This document shows positions 52,262 to 57,687 of a DNA stretch of 64,000 nucleotides, piece after piece. A program made the position numbers and the translations under genes. The stretch's first letter is position 1; every line of letters begins with the position of its first letter. Where the stretch lies: contig CM000435.1 in NCBI GenBank assembly GCA_000165345.1, positions 1,024,001-1,088,000 on the forward strand. Direction: 5' to 3'. The notes beneath the pieces were generated by a model. It worked only from the letters and a program-made list of their open reading frames with translations. It was not told the DNA's origin and searched no databases.

Positions 52262-53481
52262 ATGGTAAGTTAGGAGTATTTTTAAGCAAGACGAGGAAGT
52301 TTCTAACTGGAGCTTGTTAATTCTTTAGGCACGTGGTCCAAAGAAGCATTTAAAGCGTGTGGCAGCTCCATCCAACTGGATGTTGGACAAATTGACAGGT
52401 GTATATGCACCTCGTCCATCAAGTGGTCCACATAAACTAAGAGAATGTATTCCATTAGCAATTTTACTCCGTAACAGATTAAAGTTTGCTTTAACATATA
52501 CTGAAGCAAAGTATATTGTAATGCAACGTCTTATCAAGGTTGATGGTAAGGTCAGAACTGATATCTGCTTCCCATTAGGTTTGATGGATGTTGTAAGCAT
52601 TGACCGTGTTGGAAAGAATATACGTATAATGTATGATACAAAGGGTAGATTCGTACCAGTCCAAATTGATTCTAAGGAGGCAGGATTCAAGCTATGCAAA
52701 GTAACTAAGGTTGCTCTTGGAGCAAAGGGTATTCCAACTGCCACAACAAATGACGCCCGTACTTTGAGATACATCCACCCAGATGTCAAGGCAAATGATA
52801 CTGTTAAAGTTGACTTGGCCACAGGAAAGGTAAGTTGATTTAGAAAAAATTGGTTCAAATAAGGCAATGAAAGGGGTGAGACGAGGATATTTTTGGTAAT
52901 TTTTATTATATAGTCGATTTGACGTGTTGGCTTTTCGGTGATGAACAACGACTTAAATGGGAATCTCTCTTACAAACAAATAATATGGTGAGATATGGTC
53001 TCGACTTTCTGTCATGATTGTCCTGATGTTCTGCTTAAAACACGTCATTTTTGTACTTTTAGAGTTAACAAAGATTCCAATATACCCTCATATATGATTA
53101 TTGCATATTTTATAGAAAGATTTGGTATTCTTATTTCTGATTTGCCTTGAAACCAAATATACTTTACTGAACAATATTTAATTTCCCCCTTTAATATAGG
53201 TAATTGACTTTGTCAAATGTGAAGTTGGTAACATGTGTATGGTCACTGGTGGTAGATCCCAAGGCCGTGTTGGTACCATTACTCACTTTGAGAGAAAGAT
53301 GGGTGCTCAGTGCATCGTCACTATTCGTGACCAAAAAGGTGCTACCTTTGCAACTTTAATGAAGAATATCTTCGTTATTGGAGAGGAGGGCAAACCCTTG
53401 GTCACTCTTCCAAAGGATAAAGGTATTAGATTATCAAATGTGGAGGACAGAAACTTAAGAATGAAGAAGCACAGGAACTAA
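52262..53481 (+). CDS. RPS4: 40S ribosomal protein S4 (eS4) with three exons. Exon 1 is the ATG codon alone at 52262..52264. Exon 2 is 52329..52829 and exon 3 is 53200..53481. Intron 1 is 52265..52328 (64 nt) and intron 2 is 52830..53199 (370 nt).
   Basis: The junction ATG|GTAAGT....TTCTTTAG|GCACGTGGTCCAAAGAAGCAT gives [44 protein letters not shown].... This is collinear with eS4 [41 protein letters not shown]. Exon 2 ends at ...DLATGK|GTAAGT. Exon 3 follows TTAATATAG| and reads [33 protein letters not shown]..., against eS4 [33 protein letters not shown]. All junctions are phase 0. The tracked ORFs 52359..52838 and 53233..53481 are fragments of this gene. Confidence 0.85.
52922..53045 (+). 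ncRNA. Candidate intron-encoded box C/D snoRNA inside RPS4 intron 2
   Basis: A C box GTGATGA lies at about 52938..52944 and a D box CTGA at about 53023..53026, about 80 nt apart. They are flanked by an inverted repeat ACGTGTT (52922..52928) and AACACGT (53039..53045) that could form the terminal stem. The 370-nt intron is unusually long compared with the other introns here, which are 50-80 nt. Confidence 0.3.
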
Positions 53482-53738: not shown

Positions 53739-54128
53739 TTAATCTAAAATTAATTCATCAATCTTCCAGTCCTCATAATTCCCATTTGGGAGATATCTTC
53801 TAATAACAAAAGGAATTTTCTTAGTATAAAGCTCTTTCTCCGCTATTAATAAAGGATCGGTTTCTCCATCTAATGGTATTGCAACCGGAGCATTCATACT
53901 AATTTGTAGTGCTCTTGTTCCAATAATTCTTGCCTTTTCAAACTTTGTCATATAAGGAGTTGTAATACGAGGACCTTCATTTGGTTTACCATCATATCTA
54001 CTATGTACTGCATCTTCTGTCAATATTTCTATATTCTCATCTCCTTCTATCTCTTCTTCTATTAATTCCTCTTCCATATACTCCTCTTCCTCATCATAAT
54101 TTCCTCCTGATTCATCATAATCATTCAT
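53739..54128 (-). CDS. RPB6: DNA-directed RNA polymerases I, II and III common subunit RPB6 (RPABC2/omega-like)
   Basis: The stretch [75 protein letters not shown] is collinear with RPB6 [27 protein letters not shown]...[34 protein letters not shown]. The N-terminal tail is acidic. Confidence 0.9.
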
Positions 54129-54256
54129 TTTTATAAATTACTTTAAACTGCTCTAACTTGACAGCTTTTTTGTTTTAATTAAATAATTATTTTAATTCTT
54201 AATTAAAAAGTCTTATTCAGAAACTCCTAACCCCGGAAAAAATAAATTCATGAACA

Positions 54257-54266
54257 GGCGGGAAAA
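54257..54266. promoter_or_regulatory. E2F-like GGCGGGAAAA motif in the RPB6/GST divergent promoter
   Basis: The string catgaacaggcgggaaaatcag was read directly. TGCATGC-like elements, gttgcatgctaaaa and agtcatgcaaaaac, lie nearby. Confidence 0.35.
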
Positions 54267-54744
54267 TCAGTTCACTATTGTAAAAGTTGCATGCTAAAAT
54301 TTAGTCATGCAAAAACAAATTTATGAATAAAATGAAAATTAATGTACTGTAGGTGGCTTTGCAGAGGGAAGAATATGGGGGAACCATCGAATAGTTGATT
54401 TTTTTTAAAATAATAGACTAGATTAACGTTATGATCTGACAATTATCTTGAATTCTGTTTGAAAAACTATTTATTAAGTTTTAAGTAAATAGCATTTCTA
54501 TTAAGCGTTGTATAATAAATATAATTTTTTCAGAAAATTCAAACATATAATAAATTACGTGTAATTACCTGTAATTTGACTGAATTTATTGAGGAAAATT
54601 ATTATTTTTTTGAATAGAAAAAAGGACTTAATTAGATTTTCACTACTAATGGAATATATTGGCTCTTTGGATAATCCATTAAGACTCATTTACTTTTCAT
54701 GCAGGTAAGAGATATTACATAGAACTCAAGGAAAATATGGAGTT

Positions 54745-55553
54745 ATGTTACTGGAAAATTATTTAGAAAATATGTAAAATCCAGTATCAGTTAATGGAAT
54801 GAATAATTCAATTTATATTTTAGAGGAACTTGTGATGTAATAAGGTTGCTGCTGGTAGACCAAGAAATACCATATGAGGGTAAGTGAAGTGAAGTCAATA
54901 TTATTATGTAATATACAATAAACTTTAATCTGAATTATAAAAATGATTGAATATTTAGAGCATAATATTTCAGGAAAAGACTTTTTACAGCCCGAGTTTC
55001 AACAAGTCCTAGTGGAATCTGGGAACTTTCCAATGCTCCCATATTTGTCAGACTCAAACAATGAAGTCGAGCTAACAGGATCATTCACAATATTAAGGTA
55101 CCTCGCAGATAAGTGTAAGTTGATGGGTAAAAGTCCTGAGGAAAGAAATAAGATAGAAAATTGGCTGGAATATCTTCAATCTTTACTACATTCAGTATGG
55201 GATTTCGAAAATATGTCAGATAATTATACAGGAATCCAACAGGCAAAGAAAAAGAGCCAGTTTCTATTAGAAACTCTTCATCCAATGCTTAAATGTATAG
55301 ATGAAAAGATTGAACAAGGAATCTGGGCTCTAGAATCCTATTCAGTAGTGGACATTGTCCTATATTCAGCAATAAGCGTGATAATTAGATCTTGGGGAAG
55401 CGATCTATTGAAACCTTATATTAGGTAAGTTATCATTGTATGGAAGGATCAGCTGTATAACTAACGAATGCCAGAATATTAACACATAAAAAGAATATGG
55501 AGAAATTGAGAAAGCAAATAGATTCGTTTAAGGATGACCCTAGACGTTTTTAA
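54745..55553 (+). CDS. Glutathione S-transferase-like protein. The proposed model has four exons: 54745..54773, 54824..54879, 54959..55424 and 55475..55553.
   Basis: Exon 3 lies inside the tracked ORF 54943..55428. It contains the GST thioredoxin-like and helical core, for example FPMLPYLSDSNNEVELTGSFTILRYLADKCKLMGKSPEERNKIENW, against GST [43 protein letters not shown]. Exons 1 and 2 give MLLENYLENI-GTCDVIRLLLVDQEIPYEG, against GST MPMILGYWDIRGLAHAIRLLLEY. The splice sites are AT|GTAAAA..TTTTAG|A, GAGG|GTAAGT...ATATTTAG|AG, and ATTAG|GTAAGT..CTAACGAATGCCAG|A, the last with a CTAAC branch point. All phases are consistent. The choice of first exon is the least certain part of the model. Confidence 0.55.
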
Positions 55554-55578
55554 AAAGAAATAACTAACTAGTAATAAA

Positions 55579-57633
55579 TTAATCTCTTGAGTATTTGAAT
55601 TGATCAGGTCTACTATTTAAAATGATTTGATCTCGCTCACTTACAACCCATGCAACAACAACTGTAATGTCATCAAGCTTTCCTCCAGTACTAAACTGCC
55701 AAAGTTCATCGCTGACGCTACAATGTCTGTTAAAAGGGGTCTTTGCCTTTGGATCCAAAGATTTGATGTATGCTGCATTTGCTAGAGCCTTGGATATGTT
55801 ATGAGGGCTTGAATATAATTTGGGATCTTTTAGTAACCTAATTGCCTCATATGGGGAGATTGCTCCGCTACATATGCTACAAATTTCATAATCAAACAAA
55901 TTATCAAATAAACCATCGGTAGCAACTACAATTAAGTCACTTTGGGAAAGGGTAATCTCTTTGGTTATTGAATGAGATGGTAAATCCTGAGGAACATCCT
56001 CGCTATTTTTAACAAGATTAATAAAACAAGTCAATCCCTTTTCTTGTAACATTGGAAAATCTTCAGGAGTTGGAAGCCTTGATAACTGAAATGGACAATT
56101 AAAAGAATGTTGCTGAGCTGGACTTCTATAAACAATACCCATCCTAAAAGTTTCAGGAGTTCTTCTTAATATAATTATCCCAGAGTCTCCCAAATATGAA
56201 ATCTGAAGTTTGCTAGTCTTTGGGTCAAAACATGCAACAAAAGCTGTAGATGAGCCAAAAGACTGCGTATTCTTATATCCCTCCATCAACAAAAACTGAG
56301 AGTAAGAAAGAGCCTGAGAGTCACTGTTGAATTGTTTTCCTAAGTTAAACATTTCCTCTTTATCGTCTTTATCCAACTCATTCTGTGGCTCAGTCCTTTC
56401 TTCCATACTGTAACCTATATCAAACTTTAATTTTGCTCCTTTAGAACGATGCGTAAATCCACGAAATTCCGAGACCTCCCTACTTTCCATTGTCATTTTC
56501 TTTGTCGCATCTGGCTTAATGTTTGCATGCACCACATTTTTCTTTAAAATTGCCACGTCATTAGGCGGGGGGCGGGGTTGCATGCATTTTGTATTAAGAT
56601 AAGCTTCTCTCATTCCAGAAATGAGTTCAGAAGCGAATAATTTTGGGTTAACTCCAAAGTTGGCCCATTCTCCCACTCCATCGGCAATTCCGATTACATT
56701 TTCCTCATAAAAGTGTGCATCCTCTCCTCCGTAGTGAACTTTTGAAGGATGGGGGTGAGAGCAGCTCCCAATGGATAAATTCAAGACTGCTCCATCTTTT
56801 TTTGGTCGAATATATTCTGGAATTCTAAGGAAAATATCAATTCCTTTAAGGTAGCTAGTAACATTTGAAGGCCAAGCTTTATTAGAGTGTGTTGAAATCC
56901 TCCTAAGTCTGTCCTCTTTCAGAGCCATATTTAGCCTTTCCATACCATCGTCATTATAGGGTGGAAATGCAACAGTAGTACTTGTCATAACTCTGTATAT
57001 GGCGGGCCGTCCTGAAGTTGGAGTATTAGAAGAGGGAGAGTTTATGGTAGAGGATGCAGATGAAGATGCAGAGGTACTTTTTGAATAGTCATAAATATCT
57101 TTATTAACATTCCATTCGTATACTTCTCTTTGGGTAGTTGTTTTGTCTTGTCCTTCTACTTCTAACTCCAATTCTAAATCCAAAATTTCTCCCGAATAAA
57201 AGTTACTATTCTGACTGAGGTTTGAACGAGCAAACATTAGACCATCGCTAAAGCATCTACTCATGAAGGATTTCTGGTAAATATTGTCATTACGTTCTCT
57301 TTTTCCTTGGCTACTTTCTTCGACTTCTATTTCTGCCTCCCTACTACCTTCTGAGCCCTTTGACCAAGCCTCATTTGGGCTCTGATTGGACGTTGCATTC
57401 TGGGATGGAGAGAAATTACCTGAAATTGAACCAGCTGTTGACTGGGATGAATATCTTTTTGAATGGTAAAGCTTTTCAGGAAGCTCTTTTGAAAATATCC
57501 TCAATACATTCTTTGAATGGCTTACTATACTCTCTCCTCCCAAATGGCTATTCCTTGCTAAATCCTCCAAAAACCTCCGAAATATTACAGAGGGCTCTTG
57601 CTCTTCCTGTATTCTTTCATTTTCTTTATACAT
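55579..57633 (-). CDS. PTC7-type PP2C/PPM phosphatase with a long Ser-rich N-terminal extension of about 684 aa. It is the second PTC7-like gene in the window.
   Basis: The tracked ORF ends at 57657 with a GTG start. The first ATG, at 57633, gives MYKENERIQEE. The catalytic core follows: IGIADGVGEWANFGVNPKLFASELI, then IVVATDGLFDNLFD and a C-terminal GGKLDDITVVVAWVV. An E2F-like TTGGCGCC at 57688..57695 lies just upstream of the trimmed start. Confidence 0.65.
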   Translation of the reverse strand: MYKENERIQEEQEPSVIFRRFLEDLARNSHLGGESIVSHSKNVLRIFSKELPEKLYHSKRYSSQSTAGSISGNFSPSQNATSNQSPNEAWSKGSEGSREAEIEVEESSQGKRERNDNIYQKSFMSRCFSDGLMFARSNLSQNSNFYSGEILDLELELEVEGQDKTTTQREVYEWNVNKDIYDYSKSTSASSSASSTINSPSSNTPTSGRPAIYRVMTSTTVAFPPYNDDGMERLNMALKEDRLRRISTHSNKAWPSNVTSYLKGIDIFLRIPEYIRPKKDGAVLNLSIGSCSHPHPSKVHYGGEDAHFYEENVIGIADGVGEWANFGVNPKLFASELISGMREAYLNTKCMQPRPPPNDVAILKKNVVHANIKPDATKKMTMESREVSEFRGFTHRSKGAKLKFDIGYSMEERTEPQNELDKDDKEEMFNLGKQFNSDSQALSYSQFLLMEGYKNTQSFGSSTAFVACFDPKTSKLQISYLGDSGIIILRRTPETFRMGIVYRSPAQQHSFNCPFQLSRLPTPEDFPMLQEKGLTCFINLVKNSEDVPQDLPSHSITKEITLSQSDLIVVATDGLFDNLFDYEICSICSGAISPYEAIRLLKDPKLYSSPHNISKALANAAYIKSLDPKAKTPFNRHCSVSDELWQFSTGGKLDDITVVVAWVVSERDQIILNSRPDQFKYSRD

Positions 57634-57687
57634 TATTAAATTATTGCATTTCTGCACACGACTCCTCCTCTAACATGATTTCGCCTC

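What the first reader, a model, noticed from the sequence alone, without database searches (positions are those of the whole stretch)
54745..55553. Intron-rich (4-exon) GST-like gene in an otherwise nearly intronless neighbourhood
A GST thioredoxin-fold core (...LPYLSD....TILRYLADKCKLMGKSPEERNKIENW...) is only readable if three short GT-AG introns are removed. The final intron has a CTAAC branch point. The gene is fragmented in the ORF track, where the 161-aa ORF begins at an internal acceptor. A second reading frame at the 5' end also yields a GST-like beta-1 strand peptide, MELCYWKII followed by a stop. This peptide lacks a legal donor site, so the first exon is ambiguous. Cytosolic GSTs are sparse in apicomplexans, which makes the gene worth confirming.
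Basis: partly seen in the sequence, partly recalled or inferred. Interest (0 to 1): 0.5.

Follow-up and report, generated by a model that had tools for sequence, protein, structure and literature searches.

The report
Known Cryptosporidium GST gene, first exon misplaced

Summary
The window is Cryptosporidium parvum chromosome 7, and the gene is cgd7_4780 (CPATCC_003696, "CpGST1").

**Gene model.** The gene has four exons and three GT-AG introns. Its exon 1 (54745-54773) and the MELCYWKII peptide are not exons; both lie inside intron 1. The true exon 1 is 54649-54704 (MEYIGSLDNPLRLIYFSCR, donor CAG|GTAAGA).

**Support for the corrected model.**
- The 218-aa product is identical to GenBank QOY40804.1 and WRK33660.1, "Glutathione S-transferase [C. 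parvum]".
- All three introns keep their position and phase in nine Cryptosporidium lineages.
- Differences between species fall mostly on third codon positions.
In C. meleagridis both decoy ATGs are GTG.

**Protein.** It is a tyrosine-type cytosolic GST, about 27% identical to Schistosoma Sj26 (mu class). Tyr15, Pro65 and Ser79 are conserved. The full-length protein models with a normal thioredoxin-like N-domain. The published "atypical fold" of this "Vega class" GST was therefore probably an artefact of a truncated 186-aa gene model.

**One oddity.** MELCYWKII is the best mu-GST β1 mimic in the whole window. It is not conserved, so it is probably chance.

Ordinary and already known.

The parts
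54649..54704 (+). Exon 1 (true): ATG..., encodes MEYIGSLDNPLRLIYFSC + 2 nt of Arg19. It contains strand β1 and the catalytic-type Tyr15. Donor CAG|GTAAGA.
   Evidence: First ATG after an in-frame TGA at 54577. The peptide is conserved in 9 Cryptosporidium lineages, always followed by AG|GTAA. It is needed to reproduce QOY40804.1/WRK33660.1 exactly.
54705..54823 (+). Intron 1, 119 nt, phase 2, GTAAGA...TTTTAG, 24% GC.
   Evidence: Same position and phase in all lineages. Length varies from 62 to 161 nt, and the sequence cannot be aligned beyond the parvum/hominis/meleagridis clade.
54737..54766 (+). Intronic decoy A: ATG GAG TTA TGT TAC TGG AAA ATT ATT TAG = MELCYWKII*. It mimics a mu-class GST β1 strand, but has an in-frame stop and no usable donor.
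   Evidence: Joining it in frame to RG... needs a 61-nt intron with no GT-AG, GC-AG or AT-AC ends. Its ATG is GTG in C. meleagridis. It is absent in six more distant lineages.
54745..54773 (+).
   Evidence: Lies inside intron 1. Donor GT is AT in C. hominis. ATG is GTG in C. meleagridis. Its 209-aa product is not in the 15-billion-protein collection. It adds only about 2 bits to a mu-GST profile score, against about 11 bits for the true exon 1.
54824..54879 (+). Exon 2, 56 nt: (R)GTCDVIRLLLVDQEIPYE, helix α1 and the start of β2.
   Evidence: Amino-acid sequence almost invariant across the genus, while nucleotide identity falls to 70-80%.
54880..54958 (+). Intron 2, 79 nt, phase 1, GTAAGT...ATTTAG, 19% GC.
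   Evidence: An in-frame alternative AG at 54972-73 (exon would start at 54974) is used by the C. hominis CHM_7g4780 213-aa model and removes EHNIS. EEHN[IV] is conserved in all lineages and forms β2 in the model, which favours 54958|54959.
54959..55424 (+). Exon 3, 466 nt: the rest of the N-domain (cis-Pro loop FPMLPY, TGSFTILRY) and most of the helical C-domain.
54943..55428 (+). Legacy 161-aa ORF, the original single-exon model of cgd7_4780. With exon 4 added it is the 186-aa, 2-exon model used in the 2020 paper.
   Evidence: P0003, 'hypothetical protein [C. parvum Iowa II]'. 186 aa over 611 nt in L002/L006. Table 2 of PMC7683740.
55425..55474 (+). Intron 3, 50 nt, phase 2, GTAAGT...GCCAG. 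Branch-point-like ACTAAC at 55460-55465.
55475..55553 (+). Exon 4, 79 nt including the TAA stop: (R)ILTHKKNMEKLRKQIDSFKDDPRRF*, the last helix.
   Evidence: Conserved as I..HK..EK.RK.I..FK.DP.RF* in all nine lineages. Several public annotations missed it.

Best explanation
The locus is the C. parvum chromosome-7 gene cgd7_4780 / CPATCC_003696 (CpGST1).

**Structure.** It has four exons: 54649-54704, 54824-54879, 54959-55424 and 55475-55553. Three short GT-AG introns (119, 79 and 50 nt; phases 2, 1, 2) are removed to give a 218-aa protein. This structure is shown by the evidence below.

**Fold.** The protein is a soluble, tyrosine-type glutathione S-transferase. It has a thioredoxin-like βαβαββα N-domain (residues ~11-89) and a helical C-domain.

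**Mechanism (inferred by homology, not shown).** A dimeric enzyme binds glutathione in the N-domain. Tyr15 at the end of β1 stabilises the thiolate. The backbone before cis-Pro65 and Ser79 hold the peptide. The activated thiol is then transferred to electrophiles or protein thiols bound against the C-domain.

**Biology (from the literature).** Cryptosporidium cannot make glutathione, so the substrate must come from the host. Expression is reported to be specific to female stages.
For: **Identity**
- The neighbouring RPB6 ORF is found exactly in C. parvum and C. hominis chromosome-7 records.
- The corrected 218-aa product is identical to QOY40804.1 (CPATCC_003696) and WRK33660.1, 'Glutathione S-transferase [Cryptosporidium parvum]'.

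**Gene model**
- All splice sites are GT-AG.
- Intron positions and phases are the same in C. parvum, hominis, meleagridis, canis, felis, ryanae, bovis, andersoni and an unnamed lineage from SRR31861040. Intron lengths and sequences differ freely.
- Differences from C. parvum by codon position 1/2/3 in the spliced frame: 3/0/7 (hominis), 9/0/25 (meleagridis), 26/9/131 (canis), 27/20/129 (L013).
- The IOWA-ATCC annotation that carries this model reports its introns as 100% RNA-seq supported (PMC8744675).

**Family**
- Pfam GST_C_3 23.3 bits (cut-off 21.6); GST_N 20.7 bits (cut-off 20.9).
- PDB phmmer/hmmsearch hits to mu-class (8ude, Sj26) and 28-kDa/sigma-like GSTs, E = 4e-10 to 4e-12, over residues ~10-211.
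- Tyr15, Pro65, Ser79 and Asp169 are invariant when aligned with mu GSTs.
- The AlphaFold2 model has pLDDT 81 and pTM 0.79, with β1-α1-β2-α2-β3-β4-α3 followed by helices.
- Foldseek against the PDB finds mu, alpha, sigma and P. falciparum GSTs at TM 0.7-0.8.

**Biology**
- PMC7618951: the parasite has no GSH synthesis, and cgd7_4780 is female-specific.
Against: - No RNA-seq reads were examined here. Transcript support is second-hand: the paper's general statement plus an exact match to its protein.
- GST_N falls 0.2 bits short of Pfam's gathering score, and only 4 of 6 orthologues reach E <= 0.01.
- Several mu-class G-site positions differ in every Cryptosporidium sequence: the Gln of the Gln-Ser dyad is Gly78, Lys49 is Glu50, and Asn58 is Met63. 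GSH affinity or activity may therefore be unusual or weak. No enzymatic data were found.
- The structure model rests on an alignment dominated by mammalian mu GSTs, so it leans towards that fold. With Cryptosporidium sequences alone the N-domain was not predicted with confidence.
Confidence: 0.9

Rival explanations
1. One reading: translation starts at ATG 54745, exon 1 is 54745-54773 (MLLENYLEN + 2 nt of an Ile codon completed by exon 2), and it is spliced from GT 54774 to the 54823|54824 acceptor to give a 209-aa GST.
For: It is in frame, with a GT-AG 50-nt intron. It places a Tyr five residues before the Gly, as in GSTs.
Against: - The donor GT is AT in C. hominis, whose protein differs at only 2 of 218 residues.
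- The ATG is GTG in C. meleagridis.
- Nothing similar exists in six other lineages.
- The whole segment lies inside an intron defined by a conserved upstream exon.
- The product is absent from the protein collection.
- Its GST_N score is 16.4 bits, against 20.7 for the true model.
- The weak donor TAT|GTAAAA compares with CAG|GTAAGA for the true exon 1.
Confidence: 0.02
2. The intronic MELCYWKI(I*) segment (54737-) is a decayed or alternative first exon. It would be a former or rarely used mu-like N-terminus (MELCYWKI-RG...), joined to exon 2 by a non-canonical 61-nt intron or used before it acquired its stop.
For: - Prepended to exon 2, it scores 50.5 bits against a mu-GST profile. That is higher than the true exon-1 end (47.8).
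- It ranks 1st of 75,528 stop-free 9-mers in all six frames of the window, and lies on the sense strand 58 nt before exon 2.
- Only 1 of 1500 shuffled introns does as well.
- The hypothetical product matches 'LGYWKIRGLCDPIRLLL' of a mite mu GST almost residue for residue.
Against: - It has an in-frame TAG and no GT, GC or AT donor in any register.
- Its ATG is GTG in C. meleagridis.
- The segment changes at 4 of 30 positions between C. parvum and C. meleagridis, against 7 of 89 for the rest of the intron. It is therefore not under extra constraint.
- It is absent from all more distant lineages, which nevertheless keep the upstream exon 1.
Confidence: 0.05
3. The older single-ORF or two-exon models (161 or 186 aa, starting at ATG 54943) are the real product. 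This would be an N-terminally short GST with an atypical ααββα N-domain and no active-site Tyr, as proposed for the 'Vega class'.
For: - It is the longest ORF.
- It was the CryptoDB model used in PMC7683740.
Against: - Its first five residues (MIEYL) are encoded by intron 2.
- It omits exons 1-2, which are conserved at the protein level across the genus with mostly synonymous change.
- Those exons supply β1, Tyr15, α1 and part of β2.
- It has no GST_N hit at all.
Confidence: 0.02
4. Same gene model, but the protein is a non-catalytic or non-canonical GST-fold protein, such as a ligand-binding, redox or protein-protein module, rather than a GSH-conjugating enzyme.
For: - The Gln/Glu that binds the γ-glutamyl group in mu, sigma and PfGST enzymes is Gly78 in every Cryptosporidium sequence.
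- Two other G-site positions are changed: Glu50 for Lys and Met63 for Asn.
- No activity data were found.
- The family has no relatives above about 31% identity outside the genus.
Against: - Tyr15, cis-Pro65, Ser79 and the Asp169 capping residue are invariant.
- The distant GST P0017, which passes all Pfam GST models, also has Gly-Ser at this site.
Confidence: 0.2

Closest known systems
cgd7_4780 / CPATCC_003696 / CpGST1, 'Vega-class' GST of Cryptosporidium (Mfeka et al. 2020, PMC7683740; GenBank QOY40804.1, WRK33660.1)
   Same: It is this gene. The corrected spliced product is identical over all 218 residues. Synteny RPS4 - RPB6 - GST - PP2C-like is kept in every species examined.
   Different: The 2020 paper analysed a 186-aa, 2-exon model that lacks exons 1-2. 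It described a unique 'atypical' N-domain without the active-site Tyr. The full-length protein has β1, Tyr15 and α1, and models as a canonical thioredoxin-like domain.
Mu-class GSTs (Schistosoma japonicum Sj26, PDB 1GTA/1M99; Tetranychus TuGSTm06, 8UDE; mammalian GSTM)
   Same: - Best sequence and fold matches: E about 1e-10 to 4e-12, TM about 0.75.
- Tyr-type active site.
- Shared motifs: YxxxRG...RLLL, FPxLPY and the xS..I.RY of α3.

   Different: - Only about 25-30% identity, below the usual 40% within-class level.
- No extended mu loop: there is an 8-residue gap opposite GSTM1 'MGDAPDYD'.
- Phe16 replaces Trp, Gly78 replaces Gln and Met63 replaces Asn.
Sigma-like GSTs (Schistosoma 28-kDa GST 1OE7/8BHZ, haematopoietic prostaglandin D synthase) and Plasmodium falciparum PfGST (3FR9)
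   Same: - Comparable profile E-values (1e-11).
- Identical β1 pattern: 'kviYFngRG' against 'kliYFscRG'.
- Full-length fold match, TM 0.7-0.8.

   Different: - 20-24% identity.
- The Cryptosporidium protein sits between the classes rather than inside one.
- It has a genus-specific C-terminal helix encoded by exon 4.

Membership tests
Soluble (cytosolic) GST superfamily | N-terminal thioredoxin-like domain (βαβαββα; Pfam GST_N / GST_N_3) | tested here: met
   - GST_N 20.7 bits, against a cut-off of 20.9, over residues 13-87. This is borderline. 4 of 6 orthologues reach E <= 0.01.
- PDB profile hits from residue 10 onwards, E = 4e-12.
- The AF2 model gives β11-16, α23-31, β36-41, α49-58, β66-69, β74-77, α79-89.
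- Caveat: the alignment behind the model is dominated by mu-class sequences.
Soluble (cytosolic) GST superfamily | All-helical C-terminal domain (Pfam GST_C family) | tested here: met
   - GST_C_3 23.3 bits, above the 21.6 cut-off; 6 of 6 orthologues match.
- Helices at 97-213 in the model.
- The α6 capping Asp169 is invariant.
Tyr-type GSTs (alpha/mu/pi/sigma) | Catalytic Tyr at the C-terminal end of β1 | tested here: met
   Tyr15 aligns with the active-site Tyr of Sj26 and GSTM1. It is invariant in 62 aligned sequences and in all nine Cryptosporidium lineages. A catalytic role was not tested.
Soluble (cytosolic) GST superfamily | Conserved cis-Pro before β3 | tested here: met
   Pro65 in FPMLPY aligns with the Pro of FPNLPY and is invariant. 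The cis conformation itself cannot be tested here.
Tyr-type GSTs (alpha/mu/pi/sigma) | Gln/Glu-Ser dyad at the start of α3 that binds the γ-glutamyl group of GSH | tested here: inconclusive
   Ser79 is invariant, but the preceding residue is Gly78 in all Cryptosporidium sequences, where Sj26 and GSTM1 have Gln. The distant GST P0017 also has Gly-Ser.
Soluble (cytosolic) GST superfamily | Glutathione binding and GSH-dependent catalysis; dimer | not testable with these tools
   No biochemical data were found in the searchable literature.
Mu class GST | At least about 40% identity to class members | tested here: not met
   - 27% to Sj26 over 158 aligned residues.
- 27-32% to 55 mammalian mu GSTs.
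- 24-28% in structural alignments.
Mu class GST | Mu loop between β2 and α2 | tested here: not met
   The Cryptosporidium sequences have an 8-residue gap opposite GSTM1 'MGDAPDYD'.
'Vega class' GST (Mfeka et al. 2020) | Orthology with cgd7_4780 and the other short Group-1 Cryptosporidium GSTs | tested here: met
   Same gene and same synteny; the product is identical to the current cgd7_4780 orthologue record.
'Vega class' GST (Mfeka et al. 2020) | Atypical ααββα N-domain, lacking β1 and the positioned active-site Tyr, proposed as a unique class feature | tested here: not met
   That description came from the 186-aa model. With exons 1-2 restored, β1, Tyr15 and α1 are present and conserved.

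The most novel reading that the evidence does not exclude
Intron 1 of the C. parvum, C. hominis and C. meleagridis gene carries the remains of a second first exon, or a rarely used non-canonically spliced one, encoding a mu-class-like N-terminus (MELCYWKI-RG). This would record an exon-1 turnover or duplication within the genus.
Probability: 0.05. Interest if true: 0.35.

Novelty: already known. Interest (0 to 1): 0.12.

Why it matters
As a discovery it matters little. The gene, its four-exon structure and its GST identity are already in GenBank and in the literature.

Three practical points follow.

- **Gene prediction.** In AT-rich introns, plausible-looking in-frame "exons" with legal splice sites arise by chance. 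Only cross-species conservation or transcript data separate them from real exons.
- **Public annotation.** Models of this gene are inconsistent across Cryptosporidium species.
  - Annotated lengths are 161, 186, 193, 197, 199, 213, 231 and 270 aa, against a real 218-235 aa.
  - Exon 4 is missed in the C. meleagridis, felis, ryanae, bovis and andersoni models.
  - Exon 1 is missed or replaced in the C. felis and C. bovis models.
- **Published fold claim.** The claim that this "Vega class" GST has a unique non-thioredoxin N-domain and no active-site tyrosine most likely comes from a truncated model. [quoted passage not shown]

Tried and rejected
- **Joining MELCYWKI to exon 2.** Every register was enumerated. 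None has GT-AG, GC-AG or AT-AC ends, so the idea was rejected in favour of an upstream exon.
- **AlphaFold2 with only Cryptosporidium sequences (10 rows).** Mean pLDDT was 62.8 and the N-domain was below 50. The model was unusable and was not interpreted.
- **Homologue searches with the protein and with a six-species profile.** These found only Cryptosporidium sequences plus one distant GST. A mixed profile that included Sj26 and GSTM1 was needed to collect mu GSTs for the alignment.
- **Direct cDNA evidence.** The exon1-exon2 junction 34-mer has 0 matches in JGI metagenome contigs. This is uninformative.
- **Literature search for enzymology of CpGST1.** Nothing was found beyond the 2020 in-silico paper.
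- **Ciliate-type stop-codon reassignment.** Considered as a way to read through TAG in MELCYWKII*. Rejected because neighbouring genes have long standard-code ORFs and the organism is Cryptosporidium.
Full report
**What is at the coordinates.** The stretch 54000-56400 shows a 161-aa ORF at 54943-55428. It is flanked by short AT-rich segments with GT...AG ends. All three introns are GT-AG, with lengths of 50, 79 and 50 nt. ACTAAC lies at 55460-55465 in the last intron. MELCYWKII* is at 54737-54766. The raw observation is therefore real.

**Where the window comes from.** The adjacent 129-aa RPB6 ORF (53739-54128, minus strand) is found exactly in chromosome-7 records of C. parvum and C. hominis. 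The window is base-for-base identical over 54600-55600 with three of those records. In those records the gene next to RPB6 is annotated with products of 161, 186, 213 or 218 aa. The model has clearly been unstable.

A protein search returned only Cryptosporidium proteins. These include CHM_7g4780 (213 aa), the Iowa II 161-aa ORF that UniRef labels glutathione transferase, and orthologues from C. canis, felis, ryanae, bovis and andersoni.

**The first exon.** Several orthologues begin MEYIGSLDNPLRLIYFSCR-GTCDVIRLLL. This peptide is encoded in the window at 54649-54704. It starts at the first ATG after an in-frame TGA at 54577 and is followed by CAG|GTAAGA.

That exact sequence is on record as QOY40804.1 (CPATCC_003696) and WRK33660.1, "Glutathione S-transferase [Cryptosporidium parvum]". 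The 186-aa product built from this window is also not found there as an exact sequence.

**Comparative test.** I fetched the orthologous loci of eight further lineages and located each exon:

| Lineage | Locus |
|---|---|
| C. hominis | L005 |
| C. meleagridis | L012 |
| C. canis | L010 |
| Unnamed lineage from SRR31861040 | L013 |
| C. felis | L009 |
| C. ryanae | L008 |
| C. bovis | L011 |
| C. andersoni | L007 |

- All nine lineages have the same three introns at the same codon positions and phases (2, 1, 2), with GT-AG ends.
- Intron lengths range over 62-161, 53-86 and 46-140 nt. Beyond the closest relatives the intron sequences cannot be aligned.
- Exon 2 is identical at the protein level in most lineages, although its nucleotide identity falls to 70-80%.
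- Over the whole spliced CDS, differences from C. parvum fall by codon position as follows:

| Compared with C. parvum | Position 1 | Position 2 | Position 3 |
|---|---|---|---|
| C. hominis | 3 | 0 | 7 |
| C. meleagridis | 9 | 0 | 25 |
| C. canis | 26 | 9 | 131 |
| L013 | 27 | 20 | 129 |

This is the signature of purifying selection on exactly this reading frame, exons 1 and 4 included.

The decoys behave differently:

- Both intronic ATGs (54737 and 54745) are GTG in C. meleagridis.
- The segment is absent in the other six lineages.

Transcript evidence is indirect. The IOWA-ATCC re-annotation that contains the 218-aa model states that its introns are 100% supported by RNA-seq and that all genes were manually curated (PMC8744675). 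I could not inspect reads, and a junction search in metagenome contigs found nothing.

**What the protein is.**

- *Pfam.* On the 218-aa product, GST_C_3 scores 23.3 bits (cut-off 21.6) and GST_N 20.7 bits (cut-off 20.9), over residues 13-87. The 186-aa legacy product has no GST_N hit.
- *Solved structures, by sequence.* The best hits are mu-class GSTs (Tetranychus 8UDE, Schistosoma Sj26) and the 28-kDa/sigma-like schistosome GSTs and prostaglandin D synthase. E-values are 4e-10 for the single sequence and 4e-12 for a six-species profile. The hits cover residues ~10-211, with "liYFscRG" aligned to "lgYWkiKG" and "viYFngRG".
- *Identity.* It is 27% to Sj26 and 27-32% to mammalian mu GSTs.
- *Conserved residues.* In a 62-sequence alignment, Tyr15, Gly20, Arg26, Pro65, Ser79, Asp169 and Tyr173 are invariant.
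- *Departures from mu GSTs.* The Gln before the G-site Ser is Gly78 in every Cryptosporidium sequence. Glu50 and Met63 stand where GSTM1 has Lys49 and Asn58. The mu loop is missing.
- *Predicted structure.* An AlphaFold2 model with only Cryptosporidium sequences was unusable. With mu GSTs added, pLDDT is 81 and pTM 0.79, with β1-α1-β2-α2-β3-β4-α3 followed by five helices. Foldseek against the PDB finds mu, alpha, sigma and P. falciparum GSTs at TM 0.70-0.80. That model leans on the mu-dominated alignment, so I treat it as showing compatibility with the fold, not as independent proof.

**Relation to the literature.** The gene is CpGST1, type member of the "Vega class" proposed by Mfeka et al. 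2020. That study used the 186-aa, two-exon CryptoDB model (Table 2). It concluded that the N-domain lacks the thioredoxin βαβαββα arrangement and a positioned active-site Tyr, and called this a unique class feature (PMC7683740).

The 186-aa model starts at an ATG inside intron 2. It carries five intron-encoded residues (MIEYL) and lacks residues 1-37. With the missing exons restored, β1, Tyr15 and α1 are present and conserved. The "atypical fold" is therefore most simply an annotation artefact.

A 2025 paper notes that Cryptosporidium cannot synthesise glutathione. It cites single-cell data that cgd7_4780 is expressed only in female stages (PMC7618951). No enzymology was found.

**Likely mechanism.**

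- *Shown:* the gene structure, conservation, fold-level homology and conservation of Tyr15, Pro65 and Ser79.
- *Inferred from the family:* a dimeric enzyme that binds host-derived glutathione in the N-domain, lowers the thiol pKa through Tyr15, and transfers it to electrophiles or protein thiols bound against the helical domain, acting in macrogamonts.
- *Uncertain:* the Gly78, Glu50 and Met63 substitutions leave room for an unusual G-site or a non-catalytic role. I give that about 0.2.

**An oddity.** Prepended to exon 2, the intronic MELCYWKII scores 50.5 bits against a profile of non-Cryptosporidium GSTs. Only 1 of 1500 shuffled introns reaches 50.5. MELCYWKII ranks first of 75,528 stop-free 9-mers in all six frames of the window.

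Against any function:

- It has an in-frame stop and no legal donor in any register.
- It loses its ATG in C. meleagridis.
- It is no better conserved than the rest of the intron: 4 of 30 positions differ, against 7 of 89.
- It is missing from all more distant lineages.

I read it as a chance mimic at roughly the 1-in-1000 level. A decayed or alternative exon remains a remote possibility (about 0.05).

**Neighbourhood.** The gene order RPS4 - RPB6 - GST - PP2C-like is conserved across the genus. RPS4 (52262-53481, +) is itself split into several exons, so the GST is not the only intron-containing gene here. The PP2C-like ORF on the minus strand ends 25 nt after the GST stop codon.

**Verdict.** Three exons are right and the first is wrong. 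The gene is already known, so interest is low. The useful by-products are a consistent exon map for nine lineages and a likely correction to a published structural claim.

Noticed in passing
window 54737-54763 (+), inside intron 1: MELCYWKII is the best mu-GST β1 mimic among all 75,528 stop-free 9-mers of the window, and beats the real exon-1 peptide. Only 1 of 1500 shuffled introns matches it. It is not conserved as an ORF in C. meleagridis and is absent in distant species.
   Followed up: yes
literature (PMC7683740) against window 54649-54879: The published 'atypical thioredoxin-like fold / no active-site Tyr' of the Vega-class CpGST1 was derived from a 186-aa model that lacks exons 1-2 and begins with five intron-encoded residues. 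The full-length protein looks canonical.
   Followed up: yes
L005 (C. hominis), L012, L009, L008, L011, L007: - Public models of the orthologues are inconsistent.
- C. hominis CHM_7g4780 (213 aa) uses a downstream AG and deletes EHNIS, which forms β2.
- C. felis (199 aa) starts inside intron 1.
- C. ryanae (231 aa) retains intron 1.
- C. bovis (183 aa) lacks exons 1-2.
- The C. meleagridis, felis, ryanae, bovis and andersoni models all miss exon 4.
- One C. canis model (270 aa) has a spurious N-terminal extension.
   Followed up: yes
window 52262-53481 (+): The ribosomal protein S4 gene (261 aa over 1220 nt) is split into at least three coding blocks. It is a second intron-containing gene two genes away from the GST.
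   Followed up: partly
window 55554-55578: Only 25 nt separate the GST stop codon from the end of the convergent PP2C-like ORF (55579-57657, minus; Pfam PP2C 23 bits). The two 3' UTRs must overlap or be extremely short.
   Followed up: no
window 54129-54648: A 520-nt divergent intergenic region lies between RPB6 and the GST. It contains a GCATGC palindrome at 54289-54294, which from memory resembles an ApiAP2-type motif. Whether it relates to the reported female-specific expression is unknown.
   Followed up: no
L010 (C. canis) and L013 (SRR31861040), intron 1: In these two lineages the introns of this gene are GC-rich, for example 55% GC in C. canis intron 1 against 17-24% in C. parvum and C. 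bovis. The exons stay conserved, which fits the reported high-GC regions of C. canis genomes.
   Followed up: no
alignment A3/A2, residues 50, 63, 78 of the 218-aa protein: Three positions that bind glutathione in mu GSTs are replaced in every Cryptosporidium sequence: Lys to Glu50, Asn to Met63, Gln to Gly78. This may indicate an altered G-site.
   Followed up: partly
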